64,000 nucleotides of DNA from an uncultured Ignavibacteria bacterium (GCA_963780165.1 CAWABB010000001.1:2219591-2283590); one strand, 5' to 3'. Shown: positions 6,607 to 25,677, numbered from the stretch's first letter. Program-made: numbers and translations. The notes: a model not told the origin generated them from the sequence alone.

Positions 6607-6790
6607 GCACTGTGGAGCGCCCTGCGTCGGGGGAGAGAGTGACCATTATGGGACTCCTTGTGACCGTTTGTGATGAGCCAATGTATCGAACCATGCTCCG
6701 AATGTCAAGGGAACGCGGCCCCGGAGCGGTGCGCAGCTGGCGCGAGCAGAGGTTTGTCATTCAGAGGGTGAAGTGGTATATTTATTTTCT

Positions 6791-9303: not shown

Positions 9304-10493
9304 GGCTCGCACTGATACTGCTGCTGTCGACACTGGTTGTCCGGCCGGGCACGGCGGGCGAACAGGGCAACGACGACGAGATCAAGAAGCGCCAGGCCGA
9401 GCTGGAAACGCTCCGGGACCAGATCAAGACGTACGAAGAGCGCATCGCCCGACAGACAACGACCGAGTCCACGACCCTGGAGCTGCTTGACTCGTACGAT
9501 AAGAAAGGGACGCTGCTCCGGCGGTTGCTGTCCCAGCTCCGGCGCGAGGAGGTGGAGTTGCAGAAGACTATCGGGACGACGCGCGAGGAGCTGGAGTCGC
9601 TCGGGAGGGAGCTGCAGTTCCTGCGCGACCAATACGCCCGCTACGTCGTGTCAGTGTACGCCGGCGGCCCGGAGCGCGACATGGAGCTGCTACTCGCCTC
9701 ACGCTCCCTGAACCAGGCGTCGATCAGGAACGAGTATCTGAAGCGCTTCGCTGCGCAGCGCAAGGCCGATGTCGGACGCATCCTTGCCAAGCGGAGCGAG
9801 ATCGAGGAAGTCGAGGCACGGGCGCAGCAGGAACTGACCGAGGAGCGGCGGTTGATCGCCGAAAAGGGGGCGGAGGAAGAGCGCCTCGCGTCCCTGGCGG
9901 AAGACCGCCGGACCCTCCTGAACCGCATCCGGCGCGACAAATCGCAGCTGCAGCGCGAAATCGAGCGGAAGAACCGCGCCGCCCGCGACCTGGAGGGCAT
10001 GATCACCCGGCTGATCGAGAGCGAACGCGCCCGCGAAGAGCGGGCGCTGGGGCAAGCGAAGACGCCTCCTACCATCCCTCCCGGCACAGGGTTCGACGCG
10101 CGCAAAGGCAGGTTGCGATGGCCGGTGAGTGAAGGAAGAGTCGTGGCGCGCTTCGGGAATCAACGGCACCCGACGTTGAAGACCGTCACGCAGAATACTG
10201 GGATCGACATCGCGGTCAGGTCCGGCTCCCCCGTGATGGCCGTTGCACGCGGCGAGGTGGCGACAATCTGGTGGCTCCCCTCGTTCGGCAACCTCGTCAT
10301 CCTCAATCATTACGGCGGTTACCGTACGGTGTACTCCCACCTCGAGGAAATTCATGTGGCGGAAGGTCAGGAAGTCGCGGAGGGTGAGGTGATCGGCGAG
10401 AGCGGCGAGTCGGTGGACGGCCCACGACTCCACTTCGAGATCTGGAAGGGGAAAGAGAAACAGAACCCCGAAACATGGCTGAGCGATCGATGA
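9300..10493 (+). CDS. M23/LytM-domain protein with long N-terminal coiled-coil, EnvC-like (degenerate metal site)
   Basis: N-terminal signal plus ~230 aa of heptad-rich coiled-coil. The C-terminal LytM domain reads …TGIDIAV…[13 protein letters not shown]…RLHFEIW. The HxxxD His is replaced (N-T-G-I-D) and the first His of HxH is Arg (RLH). Confidence 0.8.
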
Positions 10494-13168
10494 CGCCCTC
10501 CTGGAAAGCGGTCGCCCTCCCGGCGCTTGTAGCCGTGGCTGCGGGGCTGCTTCTCGTCGCGAGCCTGCCCGCGCTCGAAGACGGCGTGACGCGCGGGAAG
10601 TACGCGGTCCGCGGTCCGATCCCCGCAGACACCAACATCGTTCTCGTGTACATCGACGATCAGGCCGTACAGACACTCGGCTGGCCGGTCCGGCGGAACT
10701 TCTACGCTCTCATGGTCACCGTGCTGCGCGAGCTCAAGGTCCGCGCGATCGGGCTTGAGCCGGTATTCGAGGCCCGCCAGCATGAGTATCTGGAGTACGA
10801 TGACCTCCTTGCGACCGTCAGCGCATCGGCCGGCAATGTCGTCGCGACCTCATACTTCGACAGGGTGTCGATGGAAGGGGCCGAGCTCGAGGCTGACAGC
10901 GTCGGCGGCGGCAGGATGCAGGCCAACGTCCGGCTCGTCGCGATGCGGGGGAAAGGGTATCACGGACCGTTCGACGCGCTGCGCGGGTCCGTCGCTGGCG
11001 TGGGTCACGTCAACTTCACCGAGCGCGGCGACGTTCCGGTGTTCATTCAGACAGGGCTCGACCTGGAGCCGTCGTTCGGCCTCGAGATGCTGAGGGTTGC
11101 GAGCGGCGGGCAGGTGAAGTTTCTCGGGTCGGGGGAGGATGGCCGTCCCGGGATCGATGACGGCCGCGTCATCGTGAGCGGGGACTCCGGCGATCGAGCG
11201 TTTGACGCGCCGGGCGGGATCGTGCGGCTCTCGTATCCGGGCCCCCTGACGTCGTTCACGCGATATCCCTTTCTCGAGGTCCTCAGGTCCTACGACGCCC
11301 TGCGCGCGGACAGGGAACCCGTCCTTCCCGTCGCACGCCTGAAGGACAAGATCGTCCTGGTCGGCCTCCTGGCTGAAGGACGCGGGCAATTTTTTCCCAC
11401 TCCTGTTGATCCGCGAATGCCATCGCTGGCCGTGCACGCGTCGTTTGTCGACAACGCTCTGAACGGACGGCTTCCCACGCCGATCCCATTCTGGCTGCTC
11501 GCGCTCGCGTTGCTGGCGTTTGCCGTCCTCTGCATGCTGGCCGCGACCCGATGTCGTCCGTTGCCGGGCGCCGGACTGATCGCTCTTGCGCTCCTCTCGT
11601 GGGCGGGGCTGTCGCAGGCTCTCTTTGCGGCCGTCTCGATCGTGCTGCCAGTGGTCCCGGCCCTGGTGATTGCCCTCGTGGCCGGCGGGTGGATGCTCGC
11701 ACGGGGTCACAGGGAAACCAGGACCACGGTGACGGCGTTGACAGAAGAGAAGGGCCGGATCCTCGAACAGTTGCGGGATCGCGAGGCGAGAGTCGCAATG
11801 CTCGAGCGCGAACTGGCGGGGGCGGAGAGCTCCGGGGCCGCCGAGCGCACCAGGGAGTTGCTTGAGGAAATCAGGGCGTACAAGTCCGAGATCCGGACCC
11901 TTGCCTCGCGCGCCGACGATATGGAGCCGTACGCCGCAGGCCCCTCCGCGGCAGCCGGCCCTCCTGCCGTGTTCGAAGGGATGGTGTACGCGCAGCACGG
12001 AGCGTTGCGGCAGGTTGTTGAGTTTGTCGGCAAGATCGCGGATAGTACGGCACCCGTCTTGATCCTTGGCGAGAGCGGTACCGGGAAGGAGATGATCGCC
12101 AGGGCGATCCACGCACGGAGCGGCAGGAAGTCCGGCCCGTTCGTTGCGGTCAACTGCGGGGCACTCTCGGAGGGGCTTCTGGAGAGCGAGCTCTTCGGGC
12201 ACGAAAAAGGAGCCTTCACGGGTGCGGTCAAGGACCGGATGGGGCGGTTTGAGCTGGCCCATCAGGGCACCATCCTTCTCGACGAGATCGGGGAGACCAC
12301 CGACGGATTCCAGGTGAAGCTGTTGCGCATCCTGCAGCGCGGCGAGTTCGAGCGCGTCGGCGGAGCGCAGACGCTGCACGCAGATGTTCGCGTCGTCGCC
12401 GCGACGAATCGGAACCTCAAGGAGCTCGTCCGCACAGGGGGATTCCGGGAGGACCTCTTCTACCGGCTGAACGTCCTCACGGTGGAGATCGCTCCCCTGC
12501 GGGAGCGGAGAGAAGACATCCCGTTGCTTGTGCAGCACTTCCTCCGGAGCGAGGGCGATGGGTTGAGCATCTCGCGGAACGTCATGGAAGCGCTCGAAGC
12601 GTACAGCTGGCCCGGGAACATTCGCGAGCTCGAGAGCGCAATCCGGCGGGCCGCGCTGCTTGCGCGCGCGGATCAGCGGTCGATGATCAGCGTGAAGGAC
12701 CTCACGGACGAAGTCGCTGCCGTCGTTCGGGGAAGGGTCCCTCTTGAAGAGCAGATCCTCACAAGCCTGCGTGAGAAAGAGTTTTCGCGCAGCGCCATCA
12801 CGGCCACGGCCACGGAGGTGGGCGGACTCAACCGGGGCACCGTCGCCGAGTATCTCCGCGGCGAAGCAATCCGTGCGTTTGTTGAACACCGGTTCGATGT
12901 GGAGAAGGCCGTCCGTGCGGTGTCGCTTTCGGCTGAGGTGAAGGTCAACGACCGCATCAGGAAACGGCTGATCGACTACCTGGCGAACCTGGTCGAGGCA
13001 CTCGATCGTGGTCGTCCCTGGAACGAGGTGCGTGAGGGATTGAAACCGAAGATGAAGAATCTCCCGCAGCGGTATCACAAGCATCTTGAAGAGGCTGCAG
13101 AGGCGTATTTTCGAGGGCTCTGGCAGCTCCCCGCAGAGCCTTCTGGCGGCCCCGGGGGTTCACTCTGA
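10475..13168 (+). CDS. σ54-dependent enhancer-binding protein with periplasmic CHASE2 sensor domain and transmembrane segments
   Basis: N-terminus is CHASE2-like (…[31 protein letters not shown]…). Three hydrophobic helices ([19 protein letters not shown]…[12 protein letters not shown]…[20 protein letters not shown]), then a coiled-coil. AAA+ σ54 activator core: GESGTGKE, the GAFTGA motif, …[12 protein letters not shown]…[11 protein letters not shown]…, arginine finger. A weak helix-turn-helix-like C-terminus. Overlaps the M23 gene by 19 nt. Confidence 0.85.
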
Positions 13169-13261
13169 AACACGGTAAACCTTTCCATGTCGCGGCGTGT
13201 CCAATATGATAGCGGGAATGAAGAGTCAACTTTTGTGACATTTCTCCAGAGGCCTCTGACC

Positions 13262-13651
13262 ATGCGTACAACCACCTCTTTTCTTAGCGCGCTCGTCCTG
13301 ATTCTTGTCGCTTCCACCCTTGCAGATGCGCAGCCTTCCGGCCCCACCGCGCCACCCGATAGCGCACGGATTGAGCAGACGATTGCCGACATGAAAGCAA
13401 AGGTAAAGATTTCCGACGCTCAGGCGACGAAGATCCGCCCCATTCTCCAGGACAACATGGCTGCCATGCAGAGGGACCGGGCTTCGGGTCAGATGAACCG
13501 CGAGGCGGCCCGGGAGCGGATGCTCGCCATGGACGAGAAGATCAAAGCGGTGCTGACCGCCGAGCAGTTGCCGTTGTACGACAAATACCGCGAGGAGCGG
13601 CGCCAGATGATGCGAGACCGGATGCGTGAGACGCAGGAGAGACCGCAGTGA
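13262..13651 (+). CDS. Small periplasmic Spy/CpxP-family-like protein (LTXXQ motif)
   Basis: Signal MRTTTSFLSALVLILVASTLADA. A helical, charged protein with LTAEQLPLY (LTXXQ) and a similar …ISDAQATKIRPIL… element. Start taken at an internal Met of ORF 13187. Confidence 0.5.
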   Translation: MRTTTSFLSALVLILVASTLADAQPSGPTAPPDSARIEQTIADMKAKVKISDAQATKIRPILQDNMAAMQRDRASGQMNREAARERMLAMDEKIKAVLTAEQLPLYDKYREERRQMMRDRMRETQERPQ

Positions 13652-15096: not shown

Positions 15097-16310
15097 AAGC
15101 AGGAGAGAGCTTCGCTACCGCCTTCCGGGCCATCCTGGCGAACAAATTCCGGGCGCTCCTGACGATGCTGGGGATCATCATCGGCGTTGCCGCCGTGATC
15201 ACAATGATCGGCATCGGGGAGGGAGCTCAGCAGGCCGTGGTGGAGCGCATTCAGTCGCTCGGGTCGAACCTCCTCTTCATCTCGCCCGGAGTGCACCGGG
15301 AAGGCGGTTCTCCCGTCACGCAGGCGGGCTCAAGCGTTCGCCTGAAGGTGAAGGATGCCGACGCCATCCGGGAGCAATCCACGTACGTGGATGCGGTCGT
15401 TCCGGAGCTCTCCCGACAGGCCCAGGTGAAGTACGAGAATCGAAACTGGGGCACCAGAATCATCGGTACTGTCCCGGAGTACGAATCCGTCCGCAGCTTC
15501 CGGGCCGTCCGCGGCAGGTTCTTCAGCCATTCGGAAGAGCGTGGGGTCGCGAAGGTCTGCCTTCTCGGGGCGACCGTCGCCGAAACCCTCTTCCCCGAGA
15601 GCGACCCCCTCGGCGCGCAGATTCGTATCCAGGGACAGACCTTCACCGTCATCGGACTCCTGGAAAGCAAGGGGCAAAGCGGGTGGCAGAATCCGGACGA
15701 CCAGATCATCGTTCCCCTCTCGACGGCCCAGCGCCGTCTCTTCGGTCTCGACTATCTCTCCCAGATCACTGTTCGCGCGCCGAGCGACAAGATGATGGAC
15801 AAGGCGTTCCTGGACATCGAGCGGATCCTCCGGAGGGAACACAGGCTCCGCCCGGAGTGGGACAACGATTTCACCATCAGGAACCAGGCGGATATCATTC
15901 AGACGTTCCAGGAAACGCAGGAAACGTTCACGCTGCTGCTCGCGGGAATCGCCGCCGTGTCGCTGGTCGTCGGCGGCATCGGCATCATGAACATTATGCT
16001 GATTTCGGTCACCGAACGCACGCGTGAGATCGGGATCAGGAAGGCCGTCGGTGCACGGAAGCGGGACATCATGCTCCAGTTTCTGATCGAGTCCGTCGTG
16101 CTGAGCGTGGCCGGAGGAATTATCGGCATCGGGGTCGGCATCGCCGCGTCGTTTGTGATCACCAGGTACGGCGAATGGAATCCGATTATCTCTCCGAACT
16201 CCATTGTGCTCAGCTTCCTCTTTGCCTCGTTCGTCGGGATTTTTTTCGGACTGTACCCCGCATGGAAAGCTGCGATGTCCGACACCATCGAGGCGCTGCG
16301 CTATGAATAG
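15093..16310 (+). CDS. ABC transporter permease, MacB/FtsX family (permease only, no fused ATPase)
   Basis: TM1 LLTMLGIIIGVAAVITMIG, a large periplasmic domain, then 3 C-terminal TMs containing the FtsX motif region …ERTREIGIRKAVGARKRDI…. Confidence 0.85.
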   Translation: MKAGESFATAFRAILANKFRALLTMLGIIIGVAAVITMIGIGEGAQQAVVERIQSLGSNLLFISPGVHREGGSPVTQAGSSVRLKVKDADAIREQSTYVDAVVPELSRQAQVKYENRNWGTRIIGTVPEYESVRSFRAVRGRFFSHSEERGVAKVCLLGATVAETLFPESDPLGAQIRIQGQTFTVIGLLESKGQSGWQNPDDQIIVPLSTAQRRLFGLDYLSQITVRAPSDKMMDKAFLDIERILRREHRLRPEWDNDFTIRNQADIIQTFQETQETFTLLLAGIAAVSLVVGGIGIMNIMLISVTERTREIGIRKAVGARKRDIMLQFLIESVVLSVAGGIIGIGVGIAASFVITRYGEWNPIISPNSIVLSFLFASFVGIFFGLYPAWKAAMSDTIEALRYE

Positions 16311-17091
16311 TGCAACCGGCGCATCAGGCACGACGCCCTCGCGGCAACCGGTCAGCGCGGTCATCATCACGATGAATGAGGGGGTGAACATCGAGCGCTG
16401 CCTCGACTCCGTCCGGTGGTGCGACGAGATCGTTGTGGTCGACTCCGGTAGCTCGGACGCCACCGTCGGGATCGCACGGCGGTACGGGTGCCTCGTGTCG
16501 ATTCGACCGTTTACCGGCTACGGTGACCAGAAGCAGTTCGCCGTCGACCAGGCGTCGCACGATTGGATCCTCAGCATCGATGCCGATGAAGTGATCACTC
16601 CCGGACTTCGCGATGAGCTGCTCGCGTTTCTGGGGATGGGGAGCGCGGATGCCGCGGGCGTGGAGATTCCGCGCACGATGGTGTTTCTCGGCCGGGAATT
16701 CAAGCGCGGCGCGGAACATGCTTCCCCGCTGCTCAGGATGTTCCGGCGTTCGCTGGGGGGGTTCACGTCGGCCGCGGTTCACGAGCGGATCGATGTGCGG
16801 GGAAAGGTGACGCGCTGCGGCGGGGAGATGCTTCACTACAGCTATGTCTCGATCGAACAGTATCTTCAGAAGTTCAACGCTTACACAACGGCGGCCGCGC
16901 GGATGCAGCATGCGCAGGGCAATCGCGCCTCCGTGGCCTCGATCGCGCTGGCGTTTCCTCTCGGCTTCGTCAGGCAGTATTTCCTCAAGGGCAACTTCCT
17001 GAACGGCTATCCCGGGTTTCTCTGGGCGTTCCTCTCGGCCGTCTATCCGGTCGTGAAGTACGCGAAGCTCCGGCAACTCTCCCGCACGTAA
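16303..17091 (+). CDS. Glycosyltransferase family 2
   Basis: VSAVIITMNEGVNIERCLDSV…VVDSGSSDAT…DADE (DxD). ATG at 16303 overlaps the MacB stop. Confidence 0.8.
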   Translation: MNSATGASGTTPSRQPVSAVIITMNEGVNIERCLDSVRWCDEIVVVDSGSSDATVGIARRYGCLVSIRPFTGYGDQKQFAVDQASHDWILSIDADEVITPGLRDELLAFLGMGSADAAGVEIPRTMVFLGREFKRGAEHASPLLRMFRRSLGGFTSAAVHERIDVRGKVTRCGGEMLHYSYVSIEQYLQKFNAYTTAAARMQHAQGNRASVASIALAFPLGFVRQYFLKGNFLNGYPGFLWAFLSAVYPVVKYAKLRQLSRT

Positions 17092-17342
17092 GGCCCCGCC
17101 CGGGGGCGTGTCTTCTCTACCGACATTGTTCGGTCATCGGTCTCCGGCCTTCAGGGGATGAGGGTGCCCTGTCACCTCTCTCGGGCATCCCATCGCTTCC
17201 GCGGGGTTTTTGGGCGTCCCGCACTTCGTCTGCCACTTCCCGCAGTTCGCCGGGCCTCCAGTGACCCCCCGCGCAACGCAAAACGGCTGTAACTCATTTA
17301 CCGGAAAAGGGTTGTCCGGGTCACGCCACCGGTCCACATCTC

Positions 17343-17358
17343 TGGCACGGCCATTGAA
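17343..17358 (+). promoter_or_regulatory. Candidate σ54 −24/−12 element (TGGCACG-N4-TTGA)
   Basis: TGGCACGgccaTTGAa has correct spacing, a perfect −24 box and a GA instead of GC at −12. It lies ~80 nt upstream of the ATG at 17440. Confidence 0.3.
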
Positions 17359-17439
17359 AGAACTATGGGCGCTGGCGCGTTCGAATTCGAACTGCCGTTG
17401 CACATTCCAATCACCATTCAGTATGCGGGGGAGACAGTC

Positions 17440-18438
17440 ATGAGCAAGCGCGGAGAGCTGTGGACGCTGGCAGGTCTGGCCGTGATGGGCCTTCTGATTG
17501 CCGGCTGTTCTGACAACCAGACCGGGCCTGGGGACGGCGGTGCGGCTCCGCTGGGGGTGACCACCGAAAAGCAGGCAATCGAGTATTACGCGGTGAACGA
17601 CGGCTTTGTCGCGAACGATGAAGAGACCTTCGCAGACCGCGAAGTGACACCTGTCGACGCCGGCTCGTTTGGAAAGATTGATGCCGCGGTAACGCCGATC
17701 CGGTTCGCCAGGGTCATCACGGGCATCACGAAGACTGTGGAGACCACGTTCGAGCCCGGCGATGAGGTCGCGATCGCGCATATCACGAAGGACATCACGG
17801 GCATCTTCAAGATTCTCGTCGTGACGGCGGAGAACGAAACGCTGATGGTGGAAAAACCGTTCAACGACGTGTCCGAACGCAACGTGGTGTTCAAGCGTCT
17901 CGCACGCAACCCGAACCGCTTCTGGCAGAACTGGATGCCGGTCTCGTCGTCGCTCGTGAGAGGCGAAACGATGCCCCCGAACAATTCCATCACGATCAAG
18001 CAGCTGGAGTTGATCACGGGGGACACCACGATCGTGATCACCGACCCGCTCGAGCATTACCTGTACTACGGTTGGATGGGGCAGCACCAGCTTCGCGCCG
18101 GCTTGAGGAAGTGTATGGTCCCAGAGCTGGTTGGCGGCCAGGAGGTGCGTATCCGCGTGACACTTGAGAGCACGTCGCCTGATACCGACTTCGTTGCGGT
18201 CCGATATGGCTTCAAGAACCTGAATTGGAAGAGGTTCCCGATGACCATGGTGGAGCAGCTGCAGAGCGGCGACGTGTACACGCGTGTCTACGAAACGGTC
18301 CGGGATCATCCGCTCTTCATGCACTACCACCGCGGCTGGTTCAACCTTGGGATCGACGCGGTGACGCATGAAACCCTGTTCGACGATCAGGCTCCGTATT
18401 CCGCGAGCTGGTGGGGGGTCCCGTACAGGGTTCTCTAG
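17440..18438 (+). CDS. Hypothetical lipoprotein (first gene of the uncharacterised envelope cluster)
   Basis: MSKRGELWTLAGLAVMGLLIAGCSDN (lipobox). High GC3 on this strand. The long opposite-strand ORF 17134..18555 is judged spurious. Confidence 0.7.
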   Translation: MSKRGELWTLAGLAVMGLLIAGCSDNQTGPGDGGAAPLGVTTEKQAIEYYAVNDGFVANDEETFADREVTPVDAGSFGKIDAAVTPIRFARVITGITKTVETTFEPGDEVAIAHITKDITGIFKILVVTAENETLMVEKPFNDVSERNVVFKRLARNPNRFWQNWMPVSSSLVRGETMPPNNSITIKQLELITGDTTIVITDPLEHYLYYGWMGQHQLRAGLRKCMVPELVGGQEVRIRVTLESTSPDTDFVAVRYGFKNLNWKRFPMTMVEQLQSGDVYTRVYETVRDHPLFMHYHRGWFNLGIDAVTHETLFDDQAPYSASWWGVPYRVL

Positions 18439-18460
18439 AGTCGCCGCCGGTCTGCGCAAC

Positions 18461-18489
18461 GACCCCGGGCTGGAATCCAGTCCGGGGTC
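18461..18489 (+). terminator. Strong GC hairpin between cluster genes 1 and 2
   Basis: GACCCCGGGCTGGAaTCCAGTCCGGGGTC: ~12–14 bp stem with one G·U. No U-tract. Followed by a σ70-like TTGAAT-N18-TATCTT. Confidence 0.4.
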
Positions 18490-18555
18490 GCGCGTTGTCC
18501 GGCGCGGTTGAATATCATACGGTGAATCGTGTATCTTGACAGCACAGGCGGACAC

Positions 18556-19443
18556 ATGAAACGCGCGCGCGACATTCTATCGACCCTCACCATCGTTCTC
18601 CTGACGGGATGCCAGCAGCCATCCGACATCGTGGTGGCCCCTGCATCGGCCGACCAGGCCAGCGTGGAAATTGTCCCGGTCGTCGTTCCGGACACCGCCT
18701 CGTCAGGCGCGTGGTCCGATTCGACTGCTCTCTTGCCGCAGGAACAGTCGCTGCGAGGCGGATCGTTCCTGCTGAATCGGGTGACCCACGATACCGGAAC
18801 GGGCAGCGTGAAATTCGCGTTTGCGCACGCCTTCTTTGCCGACAGCGCCGTGCAGATGTGGGGCAAGAACTGCGGGTTCAGCGGGCGCGATCTCGGGGCG
18901 ATCGCCTTCGACGGGGGGCTGATGCTCCGATACCCTCACGTACTCCACGCCAGGACGAACCTCGGCATCGATACCGCCCTGGCACGCGGCGTTGCCTATA
19001 TCTCCAATGGGACCCAGACGTACGCGCCAAACCGCGAGTTCTCCTGGGTGCTCAATCCTGCGGGCAATCATTTCGTGACGGTGTCGGTCAGGACGCCCGA
19101 CGACCTGGTGGTGCGTGCGCCGCTCGGGGGGACTCGTGTGTCCAGAACCCAGGACCTCGAGCTGCGGTGGACAGGGGCGAACGGCAGGATGGACATCGTG
19201 ATCAGCACCTATGAGCCGATGCGGCGTAAGAGCCGCCCGATTCTCACGCTGAATCCGCCTGCAAGCGCGGGACGTGTTGTGCTTCCAGCGCGGCTTCTCT
19301 CGGGCCTGCCTGCGACAGCCCGGTTCTATATCATCACGTTCATCCTCTCGAATCGCACGGAATCGATCTCTGTGCCGCAGTATCCGGCGCGGGTGTTCGC
19401 CCGGGCGGCCGACGTCTACAACAGCTACGTCGAGATCCGGTGA
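18556..19443 (+). CDS. Hypothetical lipoprotein
   Basis: MKRARDILSTLTIVLLTGCQQ (lipobox). Its stop overlaps the next start (ATGA at 19440–19443). Confidence 0.65.
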   Translation: MKRARDILSTLTIVLLTGCQQPSDIVVAPASADQASVEIVPVVVPDTASSGAWSDSTALLPQEQSLRGGSFLLNRVTHDTGTGSVKFAFAHAFFADSAVQMWGKNCGFSGRDLGAIAFDGGLMLRYPHVLHARTNLGIDTALARGVAYISNGTQTYAPNREFSWVLNPAGNHFVTVSVRTPDDLVVRAPLGGTRVSRTQDLELRWTGANGRMDIVISTYEPMRRKSRPILTLNPPASAGRVVLPARLLSGLPATARFYIITFILSNRTESISVPQYPARVFARAADVYNSYVEIR

Positions 19444-21449
19444 GAGTAGCGGCAGCGATCATCCTGACGGGGTGTGTGATGGGAATCCGAGGGGAGGTCC
19501 TGAGCCAGTCGTTGTCAGATGCGCGCGCCGTCGGTGTGGGCGCATACGCGCCGCTGGCCAGCGACAGCCGGGCTTTCTCGATCAATCCCGCGGGGCTTGC
19601 GGGAGTCCGCGACTGGGAGACCGCGTTCGGCACGTACTTGACGACGACCAGCTCAGACGCCGGTTTTGTCTTTCATGGATTGACGCTCGCCAAGCGCTTC
19701 GGCGACTTCTCCGCCGCCTTTCAGTACTCCCCGGGGACCTCGGTGCGGTTCGTCGTCCCCCCGACGCTGGTGATCGGCCAGTCTGACAACCCCTCCAGGA
19801 ACGACCAGACCATCGAGTACTCCGAACCATTTGCGCTCGGTCTATCATACCGGTTGAGTGATCGCATTGTGGTCGCGCTCGGTGGCCGCAACCGGCGCGA
19901 GATCGTTGACGATACGCGGTATGAGATTGTGCTGAATGACACCGTGGCGATTCCGGTCATCTACCAGACGACGTCGGAGGCACGCTACTGGAACGTCGAT
20001 GCCGCGCTTGCATGGACGCCATCGCAGGCCGTTTCTGTGTCGCTCCTCGGACGGAATATCATCGCTTCGCTGGGCAGTGATCTCCCTGAGGCCATCGACA
20101 GCCTTGCCCTGAGCACCCATGCAATCGGGGAGCTTGGACTTGCGGTCCGACCTGCAAGGAAGATTGCGCTCGCGGCGGCGATCACCACCGACGTGACAGG
20201 GGGAGCAGGCGCGGAGTGGACGCCCGGTCTCGGCCTCGCGTTCCGTGGAGGGCTCTACTTCGATGACGACGGCGCCCCATTCGTGAATGCCGTGGCTGTG
20301 GGAGTGGGTTGGTCCTACGAATTTGTGGAGATCGGGGCCGGGTATCTGCACTTCCTTGACCAGACCGGCAGGCAGGGCTCGACGGAGGGGACCGCGTTCG
20401 ATCCGTCCGGGATTTCGACCATTGATATGAACCCATATTCAAGTGACCGGATTGCGATCTCCGTGAAGGCCATGTTCGGGCAGATCCGTGAAAGCCTTGC
20501 CCGGATTGAGGGAGTGAAGGTGACCAGCGTGGTGTATCCGGCCTCGGCGGCGACGCTCGCCTTCAAGCCCATAGGTACGGCCCAGATACGCAACGTCAGT
20601 GACCGGCAGATTCAGGCGAAGGCGTCGTTCTACGTCGAACGATACATGGATGAGCCGACTGAAACACTGCCTGTCACGCTCCAGCCCGGGCAGGTGGTGG
20701 AAGTGCCCCTGACCGCGCTCTTCAACGACCAGGTCCGCCGCGTCTCAAGTCAGGCGCTTCGGGACGCAACGGTTACCGTGATTGCCACGCCGTCCGGAGA
20801 GCAGGATGACACATTCCAAACGCGCATCCTGATTCAGGGAAAGAATGCATGGGACGGCGACGTGCTCTCTCTCAGGTACTTCGTGACGCCGGACGATCCC
20901 GCTGTCATCAAGTACACGAGGGATGTGCTTGTTCAATCCCGTGATTCGCTCGCGAATGTGAACCGCTCGCTCGAGCAGTTCGTGAAGGCGCGCGTGCTGA
21001 TCGACACGTTCGGCGGCGGGCTGACATATATCGGGGATCCGCGGCAGAGTGCGGACCATGTGCAGTATCCGTCGGAAACGCTCGCGCTCAGGAGCGGCGA
21101 CTGCGACGACATGACGGTCTGCTTTGCGTCCCTGCTGACGAGCATCGGCATCCCGGTGGCGTTTGTGGATGTTATTCCCCCGGGACGGCCCGAGGAGAGC
21201 CACATCTATCTGCTCTTCGATACCGGCGTGGAGCCGAGGTTCGGATCCAGTATTGCTGACAATCCAAAACGCTATGTCGTCCGCGCCACGCGGGAAGGGA
21301 AGGAGACCGTCTGGGTTCCGATCGAGACGACGGTCATTGCCGAGGGATTCAAGGAGGCATGGGACCGCGGAGCACAGGAATATTATGAACACGTCGAGGT
21401 CGGCCTCGGGCTTGTGAAGGGCTGGGTCCGGATCGTGGACGTCTATTGA
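19440..21449 (+). CDS. Fusion protein: N-terminal FadL/PorV-like outer-membrane β-barrel region + C-terminal transglutaminase-like cysteine-protease domain
   Basis: Signal MRVAAAIILTGC. N-terminus …AYAPLASDSRAFSINPAGLAGV… carries an NPA motif and alternating amphipathic β-strands. C-terminus …LRSGDCDDMTVCFASLLTSIGIPVAFVDV…ESHIYLLFDTG… is a transglutaminase-core-like Cys…His arrangement. Stop overlaps the next start. Confidence 0.55.
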   Translation: MRVAAAIILTGCVMGIRGEVLSQSLSDARAVGVGAYAPLASDSRAFSINPAGLAGVRDWETAFGTYLTTTSSDAGFVFHGLTLAKRFGDFSAAFQYSPGTSVRFVVPPTLVIGQSDNPSRNDQTIEYSEPFALGLSYRLSDRIVVALGGRNRREIVDDTRYEIVLNDTVAIPVIYQTTSEARYWNVDAALAWTPSQAVSVSLLGRNIIASLGSDLPEAIDSLALSTHAIGELGLAVRPARKIALAAAITTDVTGGAGAEWTPGLGLAFRGGLYFDDDGAPFVNAVAVGVGWSYEFVEIGAGYLHFLDQTGRQGSTEGTAFDPSGISTIDMNPYSSDRIAISVKAMFGQIRESLARIEGVKVTSVVYPASAATLAFKPIGTAQIRNVSDRQIQAKASFYVERYMDEPTETLPVTLQPGQVVEVPLTALFNDQVRRVSSQALRDATVTVIATPSGEQDDTFQTRILIQGKNAWDGDVLSLRYFVTPDDPAVIKYTRDVLVQSRDSLANVNRSLEQFVKARVLIDTFGGGLTYIGDPRQSADHVQYPSETLALRSGDCDDMTVCFASLLTSIGIPVAFVDVIPPGRPEESHIYLLFDTGVEPRFGSSIADNPKRYVVRATREGKETVWVPIETTVIAEGFKEAWDRGAQEYYEHVEVGLGLVKGWVRIVDVY

Positions 21450-22162
21450 AGAGGGAGCAGCCAATGAAACGACTTGCGATCTTCGTTGTATCCGCATTCC
21501 TGACGGCGCAAGCCTCGGGCGAGGGTATCACCGTGCAGAGCGCCAGGGGGGAGGTCAGCGTGCGCCACGGCGTCACAGAATCCTGGATGCCCGTCGGAGC
21601 CGGCGATCTCCTGCGGTCGCACGACAGCATGAAAACCGGCGGGAGCGGTGCGGCCGTGCTCTCGGTAGCAACGGCGTCCGGCGCGAAAACCATCACGCTT
21701 CCGTCTGAAGTCATCGTCGACATATCGGATATCCGGGACCTCTCGCAGGAGGAGCTGATGCTGAAGCTCACGATGGAGAAGGTGCGCGGATCGGGCTATC
21801 AATGGGACGAATCGGACCCCTCGATTCCGAATGCCGGCGTAATTCACGGAACGAACAAAGGGGCGGCTCGCGAGCTGACCGAAAACAAGCTCCGGACAGG
21901 GCGGATGCAGCTGAACGGTGCGCGGGTGCTGTTCGAGAACGGGTTCTTTTCCACGTGTGTCCTGCGGTCGATGGAAGTCTTCCGACTCTACCCGGATCTC
22001 AGCAGGTCGTTCGAGGACCGGCTCATGGTGGCCCGGGCACTTGAGCGTGCGAAGTTGACCGGGGAGGCCCTCTCGGAATACGGCGCAATGGCGGGCTTTG
22101 AAGGCCTTACGGCCCAGCAGCAGGCGCTCGTCCGGGAGCAGATGCAGGCTCTGCGCAAGTAG
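21446..22162 (+). CDS. Secreted FecR-domain-like protein
   Basis: Signal MKRLAIFVVSAFLTAQA. …GEVSVRHGVTESWMPVGAGDLLRSHDSMKTGGSGAAVLSVATASGAKTITLPSEVIV… resembles the FecR β-sandwich. Confidence 0.45.
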   Translation: MKREQPMKRLAIFVVSAFLTAQASGEGITVQSARGEVSVRHGVTESWMPVGAGDLLRSHDSMKTGGSGAAVLSVATASGAKTITLPSEVIVDISDIRDLSQEELMLKLTMEKVRGSGYQWDESDPSIPNAGVIHGTNKGAARELTENKLRTGRMQLNGARVLFENGFFSTCVLRSMEVFRLYPDLSRSFEDRLMVARALERAKLTGEALSEYGAMAGFEGLTAQQQALVREQMQALRK

Positions 22163-22334: not shown

Positions 22335-23786
22335 ATGAGGCATCTCCGACACATTCTCGTTGTGTTTCTGGCGTTCTGTGTCGGACACGGGCGCGCGCAG
22401 TATGCGCTACAGGATGCATTCCCCGCACTTCCTGCGTTCTCTCTCCCCGTTGAGCTCGTCGGTGCCGGGGACGGCGCCGACCGGCTGTTCGTGGTCGAAC
22501 AGCGAGGCCGCATCTATGTCTTCGACAACACCGCATCTGTTACCACCCGCCGGTTGTTTTTGAATCTGAGCGATGTCGTCTCCGCGAGCGGCGGTGAGAC
22601 CGGTCTGCTCGGTCTTGCATTTCATCCCTCGCATGCGTCCAACGGCTCTTTTTATGTGTACTACACCAGCTCGCGCTCGGGGTCGCTGAAGAGTTACGTC
22701 TCACGATTCAGCGTGAGTGCGACAGATCCGGATTCCGCGGTCACGTCGAGTGAGGTCATTCTCCTCACGGCGGACCAGCCGTTTGAAAACCACAACGGCG
22801 GGAAGATCGGGTTCGGTCCGGACGGATATATGTACGTGTCTCTCGGCGACGGCGGTTCCGGGAACGACCCGCTGAACAACGGGCAATCACTCACCACGCT
22901 GCTTGGCAAGATTCTCCGGATCGATGTTGATGCGCAGGAGCGCCCGCTTTCCTACGGCATTCCCTCCACCAACCCGTTCGCAGGCAATACGCAGGGGTTC
23001 CGTCGGGAGATCTACGCGTACGGACTGAGAAACCCGTGGAAGTTCAGCTTTGATTCCGAGACCGGGACGCTCTGGGCCGGGGACGTGGGGCAGGGCGCGC
23101 GCGAGGAGATTGACACAATCGTGCCCGGAGGCAACTACGGCTGGCGGCTTATGGAGGGGATGATCTGCACGCCGGGCGTGAACCCGACATGCCAGGACAC
23201 GGCAGGGCTCCTGCGGCCTGTGTGGGATTACAATCGCTCTGCCGGCGACGCCTCAGTAACGGGAGGCTCTGTGTATCGCGGGGCTGCCATGTCGGAGCTC
23301 ACAGGCAAATATGTGTATGGCGACTTCGCCAGCGGGCGCATCTGGGCGCTGACCTCGGACGGCGTCAACCCTGCGACGAACGAGCTGCTGCTTGACACGC
23401 CTCATCAGATCTCGACGTTCGGCATCGACCGACAGAAGGAAATGTATGTCGTGGCATACGGCTCCGGGAAGATCTACCGCCTGACCGGGCCGGCCACATC
23501 GGTCGAGCCCCGGGCTGTGCCGGCGGCGTACGGACTCGAACAGAACTATCCGAATCCATTCAATCCGTCAACGCAGATCGAATACCGGATTGCAGAATCC
23601 GGGCCCGTGCGATTGAGCGTACACGATCTGCTCGGACGGGAGGTGGCACTGTTGGTGGACCAGGCGAAGCCGGCGGGGAGTTACAGGGTGAGGTTGGAGG
23701 CACACGACCTCCCCAGCGGGGTGTACGTATGCCGCCTGACTTCTGGGAAGTTCGTGGAGGCCCGCAGGATGCTCCTTCTGAAGTAG
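22335..23786 (+). CDS. PQQ-dependent soluble sugar (glucose/sorbosone) dehydrogenase with T9SS C-terminal sorting domain
   Basis: …GLAFHP…NHNGG…GDGGSGNDP…LRNPWKFSFD… are GSDH β-propeller motifs. C-terminus …NYPNPFNPSTQIEY…VYVCRLTSGKFVEARRMLLLK. Confidence 0.8.
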   Translation: MRHLRHILVVFLAFCVGHGRAQYALQDAFPALPAFSLPVELVGAGDGADRLFVVEQRGRIYVFDNTASVTTRRLFLNLSDVVSASGGETGLLGLAFHPSHASNGSFYVYYTSSRSGSLKSYVSRFSVSATDPDSAVTSSEVILLTADQPFENHNGGKIGFGPDGYMYVSLGDGGSGNDPLNNGQSLTTLLGKILRIDVDAQERPLSYGIPSTNPFAGNTQGFRREIYAYGLRNPWKFSFDSETGTLWAGDVGQGAREEIDTIVPGGNYGWRLMEGMICTPGVNPTCQDTAGLLRPVWDYNRSAGDASVTGGSVYRGAAMSELTGKYVYGDFASGRIWALTSDGVNPATNELLLDTPHQISTFGIDRQKEMYVVAYGSGKIYRLTGPATSVEPRAVPAAYGLEQNYPNPFNPSTQIEYRIAESGPVRLSVHDLLGREVALLVDQAKPAGSYRVRLEAHDLPSGVYVCRLTSGKFVEARRMLLLK

Positions 23787-23983: not shown

Positions 23984-25321
23984 ATGAGATACGCATTGTT
24001 GTTTCTTGCCGGCGCGGTGGCGGTTGCCTCGGCACCCGATGCCACCGTGGCCGGTGGAGCCTCCCGCTCCCGCACCCTGGCTATGATCGACTCCGTGTCG
24101 CTGGTCCGCATGAGCGCCGACATCCGATGGCTCGAAGCGCCGGGGGGACACAACAGCCGCGTGACGCTTACGCCGGGGAACGACAGTGCAGTCGCCTACA
24201 TCTATCGTGCCTTCCTCGCAATCCCCGGCCTCACGTCGGTCAGGCTTGACACGTTCTTCATCGACGCCGATCCTCCATACACGGCACGGCCCCACGTCAA
24301 TGTCGTGGCGACGCTTGCGGGCAACACAGATCCGGCACGAAGTATCGTCATCGGTGGCCACTATGACGCCTCGGCCAGCCGCGTTCAGGGCATGTCCTGG
24401 AATTCACTCTGGAGCACGATTCGTGCACCGGGGGCGGACGACAACGCGTCCGGGATTGCCGCCATCCTTGAGGCGTCCCGGCTGATGAGCGATCCCGCGT
24501 TCGGGATTGCCAACGACTACACGATCACGTTCGTGGCGTTCGGGTCCGAGGAATCCGGGCCGGTCCACCGCGGCGGGCACGGCGGGAGCAAGCACTTTGC
24601 CGCTCAGGCACGCGCCCGCAACGACCAGATCCTGGGCATGATATCGGTCGACATGATAGCGCACAACAGGGTCTTCAGCACGACCGATGTCGTCTCCAAC
24701 GCCGCATCCCAGTGGCTCGGGCAGGCCTTCGTGGACGCAAGGGATTCTCTCGCGATCCCGCTGATCACGAACCCCTCACCGTTTGCATACGGCACATACA
24801 GCGATCACGCTTCGTTCTGGGACGAAGGATACGATGCAATCCTGTTGATCGAGCATGCACCGCCATGGAACAGCACGGATCAATACATTGCCAACCCGTA
24901 CTATCACACGCCCGCCGACACGATCGAGACGCTGAACTATTCCCTGCTGAAGAGAGCGACGCAGGTCCTGACCGGAACTCTTGTATCTCTCTCTACGGTG
25001 CCGACTGGAGTTGCCGGCGAGCGGACTCCTGCGGTCGCGCAGCTCGAGCAGAACTATCCGAACCCGTTTAATCCCGTAACGCGCATCCGGTATGCGGTTG
25101 CCGGAGATCGTGGGAGCGAGTCAGGCGGCCACGTGCGTCAGACCACCCTTGCAGTTTATGATCTGCTCGGGAGGGAGGTCGCGGTGCTGCTGGACGAGAA
25201 GAAGCCGGCGGGGACCTATGAAGTGATTTTTGACGGGGGGGATCTCCCGAGCGGCGTGTATGTGTACCGGTTGACTTCCGGGACGCTTGTCGAAACGCGT
25301 CGGATGCTGCTGCTGAAGTAG
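23984..25321 (+). CDS. M28-family aminopeptidase with T9SS C-terminal domain
   Basis: …GGHYDASA…GADDNASGIAAILEASR…GSEESG… are M28 metal ligands. C-terminus NYPNPFNPVTRIRY…VYVYRLTSGTLVETRRMLLLK. Confidence 0.8.
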   Translation: MRYALLFLAGAVAVASAPDATVAGGASRSRTLAMIDSVSLVRMSADIRWLEAPGGHNSRVTLTPGNDSAVAYIYRAFLAIPGLTSVRLDTFFIDADPPYTARPHVNVVATLAGNTDPARSIVIGGHYDASASRVQGMSWNSLWSTIRAPGADDNASGIAAILEASRLMSDPAFGIANDYTITFVAFGSEESGPVHRGGHGGSKHFAAQARARNDQILGMISVDMIAHNRVFSTTDVVSNAASQWLGQAFVDARDSLAIPLITNPSPFAYGTYSDHASFWDEGYDAILLIEHAPPWNSTDQYIANPYYHTPADTIETLNYSLLKRATQVLTGTLVSLSTVPTGVAGERTPAVAQLEQNYPNPFNPVTRIRYAVAGDRGSESGGHVRQTTLAVYDLLGREVAVLLDEKKPAGTYEVIFDGGDLPSGVYVYRLTSGTLVETRRMLLLK

Positions 25322-25677
25322 TATGGAAACGGCTGGAAGGGGGCCGGTGTGATGCGATCCCGCTCTTCCTGTGCGAAAATGGGGCCCCGGCGGGGGTTTG
25401 CCATGCAGAGAAACCCCTGGCCAGCCGGAACTTTCCGGTTGACTTCGTGCAGGGATTTCGTTTCTTTTTGAGTCACTGTTTCAGAGTAGTCTGTTCTTGC
25501 CATTCGCGAAGGGATCGCTGTGACGGACCGTGTCCACCTGCCATCCGTTGCCATGTACGGCGTCGCTGGCTATGCCCCTTCGTGGACACCTCCCGCTGCA
25601 CAACCTGCGCACCTGTCCCGATCATCCAATCGCGCGCTTTCCCTCTGTTCCACATACTTCCGGAGCTGCACCCTTTC

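What the first reader, a model, noticed from the sequence alone, without database searches (positions are those of the whole stretch)
17343..22162. Uncharacterised four-gene envelope cluster with an OM-barrel/transglutaminase fusion, preceded by a partial σ54 −24/−12 match
Four co-directional genes are translationally coupled (ATGA overlaps at 19440 and 21446). They encode two lipoproteins, a 669-aa protein and a FecR-like secreted protein. The 669-aa protein has a FadL/PorV-like N-terminus (NPAG motif, amphipathic β-strands) and a transglutaminase-like Cys-protease core (GDCDDMTVCF…SHIY…) at its C-terminus. I recognise none of these as a characterised family. About 80 nt upstream, TGGCACG-N4-TTGA matches the σ54 consensus in spacing and in the −24 box, but the −12 GC is GA. 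A σ54 activator is encoded 4 kb upstream. An outer-membrane-anchored transglutaminase-like enzyme with a FecR-like partner could be a surface protein cross-linking/processing system or a signalling module.
Basis: partly seen in the sequence, partly recalled or inferred. Interest (0 to 1): 0.7.

Follow-up and report, generated by a model that had tools for sequence, protein, structure and literature searches.

The report
Sigma-54 envelope operon with barrel-tethered protease
A five-gene module conserved across Ignavibacteria pairs a membrane-bound sigma-54 activator with an operon for two lipoproteins, an outer-membrane barrel fused to a periplasm-facing cysteine-protease-like domain, and a small protein built like that protease type's known substrates, which suggests an undescribed proteolytic switch in the cell envelope.

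Summary
The four genes are real, co-directional and uncharacterised. They form a conserved module with the sigma-54 activator: in 60 of 80 related genomes it lies directly upstream, and a 4-kb insertion separates it here. The "partial" sigma-54 match is a real footprint. TGGCA[CT]-N5-TTG precedes gene 1 in 49 of 63 orthologous loci (0.015 expected), and the -12 "C" is usually A. Two TTCCCGCACTTC repeats lie about 120 nt further upstream.

Best reading: a LapG/LapA-like protease-substrate pair rebuilt as an outer-membrane-tethered system under CHASE2/sigma-54 control. It has no LapD, c-di-GMP domain, adhesin or type 1 secretion genes. The regulation is well supported; the proteolysis is inferred.

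The parts
10475..13168 (+). Membrane-bound sigma-54 enhancer-binding protein (EBP, 897 aa). It has an N-terminal TM segment, a periplasmic CHASE2 domain (aa 34-353), three TM segments, a coiled coil, an AAA+ sigma-54 interaction domain (aa 506-670, GAFTGA), a lid, and an unannotated C-terminal region of about 150 aa.
   Evidence: Pfam hits: CHASE2 E 4e-32, Sigma54_activat E 1e-67. The TM segments, coiled coil and GAFTGA were read by eye from the translation. The gene lies directly upstream of g1 in 60 of 80 orthologous loci. No Pfam HTH was found in the C-terminal 157 aa.
17217..17248 (+). Putative upstream activator sequence: two direct repeats, TCCCGCACTTC (17217-17227) and TCCCGCAGTTC (17238-17248), spaced 21 nt start to start, about 125 nt upstream of the -24 box.
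   Evidence: One search gives the coordinates. A CCGCA-N14-18-CCGCA pair occurs upstream of g1 in 43 of 63 loci (background 0.02 per 450 nt), at a median of 122 nt before TGGCA. Binding by the EBP is inferred.
17343..17358 (+). Sigma-54-type -24/-12 element TGGCAC-GGCCA-TTGAA (GG at 17344-17345; GA at 17356-17357 where the consensus has GC).
   Evidence: TGGCA[CT]-N5-TTG lies within 400 nt upstream of g1 in 49 of 63 loci, against 0.015 expected. In the 39 loci that have both this element and the repeat pair, the base after TTG is A in 20, C in 11, G in 6 and T in 2.
17440..18438 (+). g1: lipoprotein of 332 aa with unknown fold and a conserved C-terminal WWGVPYRV motif.
   Evidence: Lipobox and alignment A3. 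No Pfam, NCBIfam or PDB match. Found next to g3 in 67 of 80 loci.
18446..18503 (+). Stable hairpin in the g1-g2 spacer (core 14-bp stem at 18460-18490).
   Evidence: RNA fold of 18436-18560: MFE -61.4 kcal/mol, z -4.4. The spacer is structured (z < -2) in 40 of 59 orthologous loci. Its function as an attenuator or stabiliser is inferred.
18556..19443 (+). g2: lipoprotein of 295 aa with unknown fold.
   Evidence: Lipobox and alignment A4. No Pfam, NCBIfam or PDB match. Present in 67 of 80 loci.
19440..20477 (+). g3 N-terminal part (aa 1-346): signal peptide, hatch with NPAG (aa 49-52), and a 14-strand FadL/PorV-type outer-membrane barrel.
20499..20834 (+). g3 middle beta-sandwich (Ig-like) domain, aa 354-465.
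20862..21446 (+). g3 C-terminal transglutaminase-fold cysteine-protease-like domain, aa 475-669. Cys555 is at 21102-21104 within GDCDD, His588 at 21201-21203, and Glu629 at 21324-21326 within WxPxET.
21464..22162 (+). g4 (232 aa): signal peptide; retention-module-like beta-sandwich (aa 22-86, 21527-21721); near-invariant helix (aa 87-107); flexible linker (aa 109-136) holding the conserved I-P-N-A-G-V-I-H-G motif (aa 121-129; P122-G129 at 21827-21850); TPR-like helical domain (aa 140-231).

Best explanation
This is a conserved Ignavibacteria envelope module of five genes. A membrane-bound activator with a periplasmic CHASE2 sensor and a sigma-54 AAA+ domain drives a sigma-54 promoter in front of g1-g4, probably by binding the tandem TTCCCGCACTTC repeats.

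The operon encodes two lipoproteins (g1, g2), g3 and g4. g3 is a FadL/PorV-type outer-membrane barrel whose C-terminal beta-sandwich and transglutaminase-fold Cys-His-Glu domain hang into the periplasm. g4 is a periplasmic protein.

I propose that the g3 enzyme domain works like LapG, a calcium-dependent periplasmic cysteine protease, and that g4 is its substrate or docking partner. g4 has the layout LapG-type proteases recognise: a retention-module beta-sandwich, then a helix, then an exposed small-residue motif (P-x-A-A/G-V). Cleavage in that linker would separate the beta-sandwich from the TPR-like domain.

Shown: the synteny, the promoter and repeat footprints, the domain folds and the invariant catalytic residues. 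Inferred: sigma-54 dependence, periplasmic orientation, protease activity and g4 as substrate. Speculative: the output of the cleavage, which could be feedback to the CHASE2 sensor or remodelling of an outer-membrane lipoprotein complex.
For: Regulation:
- The order EBP-g1-g2-g3-g4 is conserved across the 80 loci kept from 203 hits in a one-genome-per-species collection. Protein identity runs from 96% down to about 37%.
- The -24/-12 element is present in 49 of 63 loci, against 0.015 expected. The repeat pair is present in 43 of 63, against 0.02.
- The EBP has CHASE2, an AAA+ domain and GAFTGA.

g3:
- The DSSP strand and turn pattern fits 14 strands with short turns on one side, so the C-terminus is periplasmic.
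- G553, D554, C555, D557 and H588 are invariant; D556 and E629 (Asp in P0086) are nearly so.
- The two best PDB sequence matches to the domain profile are both LapG, with GDCDD aligned to LapG's GDCED and His aligned to His. In LapG and DvhG the acidic residues flanking the catalytic Cys bind calcium (PMC13090378).

g4:
- 23 of 32 relatives give in-register sub-threshold hits to NF033682.
- A near-invariant helix and the conserved P122, A124, V126, H128 and G129 sit in a low-pLDDT linker.
- LapG-type substrates consist of a retention module, a targeting helix and [T/A/P]AAG, and the retention domain docks on the protease (PMC13090378).
- g3 and g4 are adjacent in 76 of 80 loci.
Against: - The window's own g4 gives no NF033682 hit. 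All hits in relatives are 13-20 bits against a cut-off of 50.
- The putative scissile pair is Ala-Ala in only about half of the sequences (A-T, T-A and A-G also occur; the window has A-G). The 'DP' motif is present only in the window's subclade (19 of 192).
- The module has no LapD-like receptor, c-di-GMP domain, giant adhesin or type 1 secretion genes.
- No co-fold or biochemical test was possible.
- The -12 GC, normally the most conserved part of sigma-54 promoters (from general knowledge), is usually GA here. No transcript start is known, and rpoN was not looked for.
- The EBP has no recognisable HTH.
Confidence: 0.45

Rival explanations
1. Barrel-lipoprotein uptake or assembly platform. 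g3 would be a FadL-family channel or scaffold that holds g1 and/or g2 as surface lipoproteins, as PorV and BamG hold partners in Bacteroidota. The periplasmic transglutaminase-fold domain would modify an imported hydrophobic compound or a client protein, and g4 would be a TPR chaperone or adaptor.
For: - The FadL hallmark NPA(G) hatch motif is invariant or nearly so.
- FadL-like barrels in Bacteroidota act as platforms for surface lipoproteins, and a BamG2-BamH2 barrel-lipoprotein pair is co-encoded in a putative operon (PMC12578637).
- Many g1 orthologues carry K-D-D/E just after the lipidated Cys.
- The g4 C-terminal domain resembles BamD, CpoB and LpoP-type TPR scaffolds.
Against: - It does not explain the retention-module fold and near-invariant helix and linker of g4, or the LapG-like GDCDD motif.
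- No substrate-metabolism genes are linked to the module.
- The acidic signal after the lipid Cys is inconsistent across orthologues and weak in the window.
Confidence: 0.17
2. Structural cross-linker. The periplasmic transglutaminase-fold domain would act as a transglutaminase or transpeptidase that covalently ties outer-membrane proteins or lipoproteins (g1, g2) to each other or to peptidoglycan. This would strengthen the envelope under a stress sensed by CHASE2.
For: - The EBP sits in a conserved envelope gene block with an M23 peptidoglycan peptidase and a DUF4292 protein.
Against: - From general knowledge, characterised bacterial transglutaminase-fold periplasmic enzymes with acidic residues flanking the Cys are proteases (LapG, DvhG).
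- The profile's best solved sequences are LapG, not cross-linking enzymes.
- The g4 architecture is unexplained.
Confidence: 0.13
3. Type 9 secretion accessory. g3 would be a PorV paralogue that shuttles or anchors T9SS cargo, with the Cys-His domain acting like a PorU-type sortase or peptidase on cargo C-terminal domains.
For: - The organism has T9SS cargo: Por_Secre_tail proteins lie immediately downstream.
Against: - The PorV_fam score is far below its cut-off (33.6 versus 90).
- From general knowledge, PorU works on the cell surface, whereas the g3 enzyme domain is predicted to be periplasmic.
- g1, g2 and g4 have no Por_Secre_tail hit.
- The downstream T9SS-cargo genes are not conserved neighbours.
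Confidence: 0.08
4. FecA-FecR-style cell-surface signalling. g4 would be a FecR-family regulator relaying a signal from the barrel to a transcription factor.
For: - FecR-domain periplasmic proteins are co-encoded with CHASE2 sensors in Burkholderia and Pseudomonas (PMC5192318).
- The module does link an outer-membrane barrel, a periplasmic protein and a membrane-bound transcription activator.
Against: - None of 32 g4 relatives hits Pfam FecR at E <= 1.
- hhalign against E. coli FecR gives probability 0.15%.
- g4 has no TM segment or anti-sigma domain.
- The barrel is FadL-type, not a TonB-dependent transducer.
- A signalling role for g4 through a different fold remains possible; that case is covered under the novel reading.
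Confidence: 0.07

Closest known systems
Lap system (LapG protease / LapA adhesin retention module / LapD) and the Desulfovibrio Dvh variant
   Same: - A periplasmic transglutaminase-fold Cys-His-acid enzyme with acidic residues flanking the catalytic Cys (GDCDD here, GDCED in LapG).
- It is encoded next to a protein whose N-terminal beta-sandwich has the retention-module fold, followed by a helix and an exposed small-residue motif.
- DvhG shows that LapG-type proteases can be membrane-anchored and can dock on the retention domain (PMC13090378).
   Different: - The protease domain is fused to an outer-membrane FadL/PorV barrel through an Ig-like domain.
- The candidate substrate is a 232-aa Sec-exported periplasmic protein with a TPR-like domain, not a giant type 1-secreted adhesin.
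- There is no LapD or DvhD receptor and no c-di-GMP domain. Control is instead transcriptional, through a CHASE2/sigma-54 activator.
- The third catalytic residue is Glu.
- Pfam's BTLCP model is not hit.
- The Ala-Ala pair and the 'DP' motif are not conserved.
FadL-family barrels of Bacteroidota used as protein platforms (PorV of the T9SS; BamG of the BAM complex)
   Same: - It is co-encoded with lipoproteins, as BamG2 is with BamH2.
   Different: - None of these has a C-terminal periplasmic enzyme domain.
- The PorV family score is far below its cut-off.
- No T9SS or BAM genes are linked to the module.
CHASE2 sensor operons with a periplasmic partner protein (Burkholderia 'BiofilmReg' operon: LysM-FecR protein plus CHASE2 histidine kinase)
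   Same: A CHASE2 membrane sensor is conserved next to genes for secreted or periplasmic envelope proteins.
   Different: - The output here is a sigma-54 AAA+ activator in the same polypeptide, not a histidine kinase. No paper in the searched library holds 'CHASE2', 'sigma-54' and 'enhancer-binding protein' together.
- The partner is not a FecR-domain protein.
FecA-FecR-FecI cell-surface signalling
   Same: An outer-membrane barrel, a periplasmic protein and a dedicated transcription factor are encoded together.
   Different: The barrel family differs (FadL-type, not TonB-dependent), there is no FecR domain, no ECF sigma or anti-sigma factor, and transcription would be sigma-54-dependent.

Membership tests
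Sigma-54-dependent promoter | GG at -24 and GC at -12 with fixed spacing (TGGCAC-N5-TTGCW) | tested here: inconclusive
   TGGCAC and the N5 spacing match exactly, but -12 reads TTGA rather than TTGC. Among the 39 orthologous loci scored at this position, the base is A in 20, C in 11, G in 6 and T in 2.
Sigma-54-dependent promoter | Conserved position in front of the regulated operon, with a cognate enhancer-binding protein and upstream activator sites | tested here: met
   The element is present in 49 of 63 loci against 0.015 expected. The repeat pair is present in 43 of 63, at a median of 122 nt upstream. An EBP gene with GAFTGA is adjacent in 60 of 80 loci.
Sigma-54-dependent promoter | Transcript start about 12 nt downstream of the element, and dependence on RpoN and the activator | not testable with these tools
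   This needs 5'-RACE or RNA-seq and mutants. The presence of rpoN in this genome was not checked.
Transglutaminase-like superfamily (Pfam PF01841, papain-like Cys-His-Asp fold) | Profile match and a conserved Cys-His-acid triad on the transglutaminase core fold | tested here: met
   [not shown]
BTLCP / LapG family (Pfam PF06035) | Match to the family profile | tested here: not met
   No relative hit PF06035 at E <= 1. Only a weak profile match to LapG PDB sequences was found (E 9e-4 and 0.017), although these were the top two hits.
BTLCP / LapG family (Pfam PF06035) | Calcium-binding acidic residues flanking the catalytic Cys (D-C-E) | tested here: met
   G553-D554-C555-D556-D557 aligns to LapG's G-D-C-E-D. 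D554 and D557 are invariant and D556 is nearly invariant. Calcium binding itself was not tested.
BTLCP / LapG family (Pfam PF06035) | Periplasmic location and cleavage of a retention-module protein at a di-alanine | not testable with these tools
   The periplasmic location is inferred from the 14-strand topology. Cleavage was not tested.
FadL / PorV outer-membrane barrel family | 14-strand barrel with an N-terminal hatch carrying the NPA motif | tested here: met
   [not shown]
PorV/PorQ family (NCBIfam NF033709) | Score above the curated cut-off | tested here: not met
   The score is 33.6 bits against a cut-off of 90, and only aa 26-159 match.
LapA-type retention module (NCBIfam NF033682) | N-terminal beta-sandwich with the MpIBP/LapA anchoring-domain fold | tested here: met
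   [not shown]
LapA-type retention module (NCBIfam NF033682) | Profile score above the curated cut-off | tested here: not met
   23 of 32 relatives hit in register, but at only 13-20 bits against a cut-off of 50. The window protein gives no hit.
LapA-type retention module (NCBIfam NF033682) | Part of a large type 1-secreted adhesin held in a TolC-like pore | tested here: not met
   g4 is 232 aa with a Sec-type signal peptide. No adhesin or T1SS genes lie in the conserved module.
FecR family (Pfam PF04773) | Profile match to the FecR domain | tested here: not met
   None of 32 relatives hits at E <= 1, and neither does the window protein. hhalign against E. coli FecR gives probability 0.15%.
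NtrC-type sigma-54 enhancer-binding proteins | AAA+ sigma-54 interaction domain with GAFTGA, plus a DNA-binding HTH | tested here: inconclusive
   The AAA+ domain scores E 1e-67 and GAFTGA is present. No Pfam HTH was detected in the C-terminal 157 aa.

The most novel reading that the evidence does not exclude
The module would be a trans-envelope proteolytic signalling pathway. An outer-membrane FadL/PorV-type barrel, possibly with the g1 and g2 lipoproteins, would sense a surface or outer-membrane cue. Its fused periplasmic LapG-like protease would then cut the retention-module/TPR protein g4, and intact or cleaved g4 would be read by the CHASE2 domain of the membrane-bound sigma-54 activator, which autoregulates the operon. 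This would give CHASE2 its first defined input and would be a sigma-54 counterpart of FecA-FecR-FecI signalling built from Lap-system parts.
Probability: 0.15. Interest if true: 0.85.

Novelty: new variant of a known kind. Interest (0 to 1): 0.62.

Why it matters
- LapG/LapA proteolysis is the textbook example of c-di-GMP 'inside-out' control of adhesion. Finding both halves of that pair rebuilt in another phylum would show that the protease/retention-module pair is a portable switch, not only an adhesin-release device. Here the protease is welded to an outer-membrane barrel, and the retention module stands alone with a TPR-like domain.
- The module gives a conserved genetic handle on CHASE2 sensors, whose signals are unknown. 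It would also add a membrane-anchored sigma-54 activator with a clear target promoter and candidate binding repeats.
- The promoter set shows that a sigma-54-type element can be conserved across many species with a variable -12 'C'. That is useful for promoter models in this clade.
- All proteins in the operon are currently annotated as hypothetical.

Tried and rejected
- Pfam, NCBIfam, PHROGs and PDB-sequence profile searches of g1 and g2 found nothing.
- FecR-likeness of g4 was rejected.
- The PDB sequence search with g4 profiles returned only a spurious 'YQWK' Ig-repeat match.
- The exhaustive HMMER search with the g4 N-domain profile found 156 clusters at E <= 1e-3. Almost all are g4-sized, and no adhesin N-termini appeared. 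Homology to LapA modules therefore rests on fold plus sub-threshold NCBIfam hits.
- The afdb50 fold library was unavailable.
- A sigma-70-type promoter scan found nothing on the + strand before g1. That scan is not suited to this phylum's promoters.
- A conserved gene downstream of g4 was sought and not found.
- PMC3416269 (the LapG structure paper) was not held in the library.
- The last protein-database search was not spent on g1 or g2, because the synteny analysis already established that they are conserved.

Full report
**What is in the sequence**

The region holds four + strand genes:
- g1, 17440-18438. The start is the ATG preceded by GGGGAG.
- g2, 18556-19443.
- g3, 19440-21449 (669 aa).
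- g4, with ATG 21464 as the most likely start.

The g4 start follows from the orthologues, which are 232 aa, and from a GAGGGAG site that precedes this ATG. g1 and g2 carry lipoboxes (LIAGC, LLTGC) that are conserved across orthologues.

The g2/g3 overlap is GTGA, not ATGA. g3 and g4 are most likely separated by 14 nt. g1 and g2 are separated by 117 nt containing a strong hairpin (MFE -61.4 kcal/mol, z -4.4).

The sigma-54-like element is TGGCAC (17343-17348), GGCCA, then TTGA (17354-17357). On its own, one such match in 64 kb is not significant: 41 of 100 shuffles contain at least one.

**The module is conserved and includes the activator**

Full-length relatives of g3 (about 650-670 aa, 40-94% identity, all named 'hypothetical') are common in metagenomes. 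A scan of one genome per species found 203 loci. The 80 kept are all Ignavibacteria-type MAGs, including one assigned to Ignavibacterium album.

tblastn of the window proteins against these loci gave the following:

| Gene | Loci with it beside g3 (of 80) |
|---|---|
| g4 | 76 |
| g1 | 67 |
| g2 | 67 |
| sigma-54 activator (window 10475-13168), directly upstream of g1 | 60 |

In the window and its 96%-identical relative L001, a block is inserted between the activator and g1. It encodes an unknown periplasmic protein, a HlyD/MacA-like protein, a MacB-type permease and a GT2 glycosyltransferase (13187-17091). L002 also carries the macA/macB genes upstream of g1, but its contig ends before any activator.

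No gene downstream of g4 is conserved. Upstream of the activator, a TPR protein, a DUF4292 protein and an M23 peptidase are also frequently conserved.

**Regulation**

The activator has a CHASE2 domain (E 4e-32), an AAA+ sigma-54 interaction domain (E 1e-67) and a lid. Its translation also shows transmembrane segments and a GAFTGA motif. No HTH is detectable in its last 157 aa.

- TGGCA[CT]-N5-TTG lies within 400 nt upstream of g1 in 49 of 63 loci, against 0.015 expected per 400 nt.
- About 120 nt further upstream sit two direct repeats of TTCCCGCACTTC spaced about 21 nt apart. The window copies are at 17217-17227 and 17238-17248.
- A CCGCA-N14-18-CCGCA pair is present in 43 of 63 loci, against 0.02 expected.
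- In the 39 loci that have both the element and the repeat pair, the base after TTG is A in 20, C in 11, G in 6 and T in 2. The window's non-canonical GA is therefore the commonest form in this promoter family.

I take this as strong comparative evidence for a sigma-54 promoter with an enhancer. Binding of the repeats by this activator and the actual transcript start remain inferred. No paper in the searched library mentions CHASE2 together with sigma-54 enhancer-binding proteins.

**g3**

AlphaFold with a 31-sequence alignment gave mean pLDDT 84. The domains are:

| Residues | Feature |
|---|---|
| 17-58 | hatch with NPAG |
| about 59-346 | barrel |
| 354-465 | beta-sandwich |
| 475-669 | alpha/beta domain |

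Counting the strands gives 14 if residues 90-111 form one kinked strand, with 2-5-residue turns on one side and longer loops on the other. The chain therefore leaves the barrel on the periplasmic side. The two C-terminal domains should be periplasmic. This is an inference from standard outer-membrane protein topology.

The C-terminal domain belongs to the transglutaminase-like superfamily:
- All 32 relatives hit PF01841, best E 2.3e-6. The window protein scores 22.3 bits against a cut-off of 23.
- G553, D554, C555, D557 and H588 are invariant. D556 and E629 (Asp in one relative) are nearly invariant.

A profile of this domain searched against all PDB sequences returns Legionella LapG as its two best hits (4u65_E at E 9e-4, 4fgo_A at E 0.017). 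GDCDD aligns to LapG's GDCED, and His aligns to His. In LapG and DvhG the acidic residues flanking the Cys bind the calcium needed for activity (PMC13090378). Pfam's BTLCP model itself is not hit.

**g4**

No relative hits Pfam FecR, and hhalign against E. coli FecR is negative. The model (pLDDT 79.7) shows:

| Residues | Feature |
|---|---|
| 22-86 | beta-sandwich |
| 87-107 | helix |
| 109-136 | low-confidence linker |
| 140-231 | helical repeat domain |

Independently, 23 of 32 g4 relatives give in-register but sub-threshold hits to NCBIfam NF033682 'retention module-containing protein' (best E 5.3e-4, 13-20 bits against a cut-off of 50). The window protein itself gives none.

Across 192 sequences the helix S-D-x-R-x-L-[ST]-Q-E-E-L-M-L-K-L-T-M-E-K-V-R is almost invariant. 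The linker carries I-P-[NS]-A-[A/T/G]-V-V-H-G, with these counts out of 192:

| Position | Residue and count |
|---|---|
| 122 | P 176 |
| 124 | A 152 |
| 128 | H 183 |
| 129 | G 191 |

LapG-type substrates consist of a retention module, a targeting helix, a 'DP' turn and a [T/A/P]AAG scissile motif. The retention domain can dock on the protease (PMC13090378). The resemblance is architectural, not exact. Ala-Ala occurs in about half of the g4 sequences, the window has Ala-Gly, and 'DP' occurs only in the window's subclade.

The g4 N-domain family is small and lineage-specific: 156 clusters at E <= 1e-3 among 1.84 billion representatives, nearly all 220-250 aa.

**Interpretation**

Two adjacent, always co-occurring genes independently resemble the two partners of a known periplasmic protease-substrate system. 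That convergence is the main reason I favour a LapG/LapA-like mechanism. In this reading, the barrel-tethered periplasmic domain of g3 docks on the g4 beta-sandwich and helix and cuts its linker.

The module lacks a LapD-type receptor, c-di-GMP domains, an adhesin and a type 1 secretion system. Control appears to be transcriptional, through the CHASE2/sigma-54 activator. What the cleavage achieves is unknown. Two possibilities are feedback to the CHASE2 sensor and remodelling of a barrel-lipoprotein complex; FadL-like barrels serve as lipoprotein platforms in Bacteroidota (PMC12578637). A precedent exists for CHASE2 sensors being co-encoded with a periplasmic partner protein (PMC5192318).

g1 and g2 remain of unknown fold.

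The rivals are a lipoprotein platform or uptake channel with an accessory enzyme, a cross-linking transglutaminase, a T9SS accessory, and a true FecR-type pathway. Each explains fewer of the observations.

**Verdict**

- The sigma-54 suspicion is upgraded to well supported by comparative evidence.
- The 'surface cross-linking' idea is unlikely, given the predicted periplasmic orientation.
- The system is best described as a new variant of the Lap-type proteolytic switch. Confidence in the proteolytic core is moderate, and confidence that it is a conserved CHASE2/sigma-54-controlled envelope module is high.

Noticed in passing
window 18446-18503 (g1-g2 spacer): A very stable hairpin with no U-tract sits between g1 and g2 (core 14-bp stem, MFE -61.4 kcal/mol, z -4.4). 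The g1-g2 spacer is similarly structured in 40 of 59 orthologous loci. It may be an intra-operon attenuator or mRNA stabiliser that sets g1 levels apart from g2-g4.
   Followed up: partly
window 13187-17091: A four-gene block is inserted between the activator gene and its target operon: an unknown periplasmic protein, a HlyD/MacA-like adaptor, a MacB-type permease without an ATPase domain, and a GT2 glycosyltransferase. In the near-identical L001 the whole block lies between the activator and g1; L002 has macA/macB upstream of g1 but no activator on its contig. The upstream repeats and promoter stayed with g1.
   Followed up: partly
window 6773-10493: A TPR protein (6773-8518), a DUF4292 protein (8515-9303) and an M23 peptidase (9300-10493) precede the activator, and its start overlaps the M23 gene end by 19 nt. 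The three are conserved upstream of the activator in 15, 36 and 41 loci, limited by flank length. The activator may therefore be co-transcribed with cell-wall and envelope genes.
   Followed up: partly
window 17343-17358 and orthologous loci L001-L080: In this promoter family the -12 position that is normally C is A in about half of the loci scored and C in only about a quarter. The TGGCA[CT]-N5-TTG core is kept throughout. This is a possible clade- or promoter-specific relaxation of the sigma-54 -12 element.
   Followed up: partly
g1 orthologues, e.g. L004:4947-5966, L041:4815-5816, L054:4804-5817: Many g1 lipoproteins have K-D-D/E right after the lipidated Cys, which resembles the acidic surface-export signal of Bacteroidota lipoproteins. 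The window's g1 has C-S-D-N-Q. A conserved [AP]-P-x-G-V-T-[DN]-E motif follows about 15-20 residues later.
   Followed up: no
L003:4843-6117 and L058:4719-6037: Two orthologous loci carry an extra stretch of about 1.3 kb between g1 and g2, presumably an additional gene.
   Followed up: no
window 22335-23786 and 23984-25321: Two secreted enzymes with type 9 secretion C-terminal sorting domains lie just downstream: a glucose/sorbosone dehydrogenase-like protein and an M28 peptidase. They are not conserved neighbours of the module.
   Followed up: partly
window 25447-29079 and 29465-30646: A large beta-propeller/Y_Y_Y sensor histidine kinase is followed by a response regulator fused to a SpoIIE-type phosphatase. 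This looks like a separate signalling pair.
   Followed up: no
window 19440-19480: The window's g3 signal peptide contains L-T-G-C, a lipobox-like string. It is absent from orthologues, which have ordinary signal peptides ending A/G-Q-S, so it is probably fortuitous. Many database entries for this family start 13 residues too late and lack the signal peptide.
   Followed up: partly
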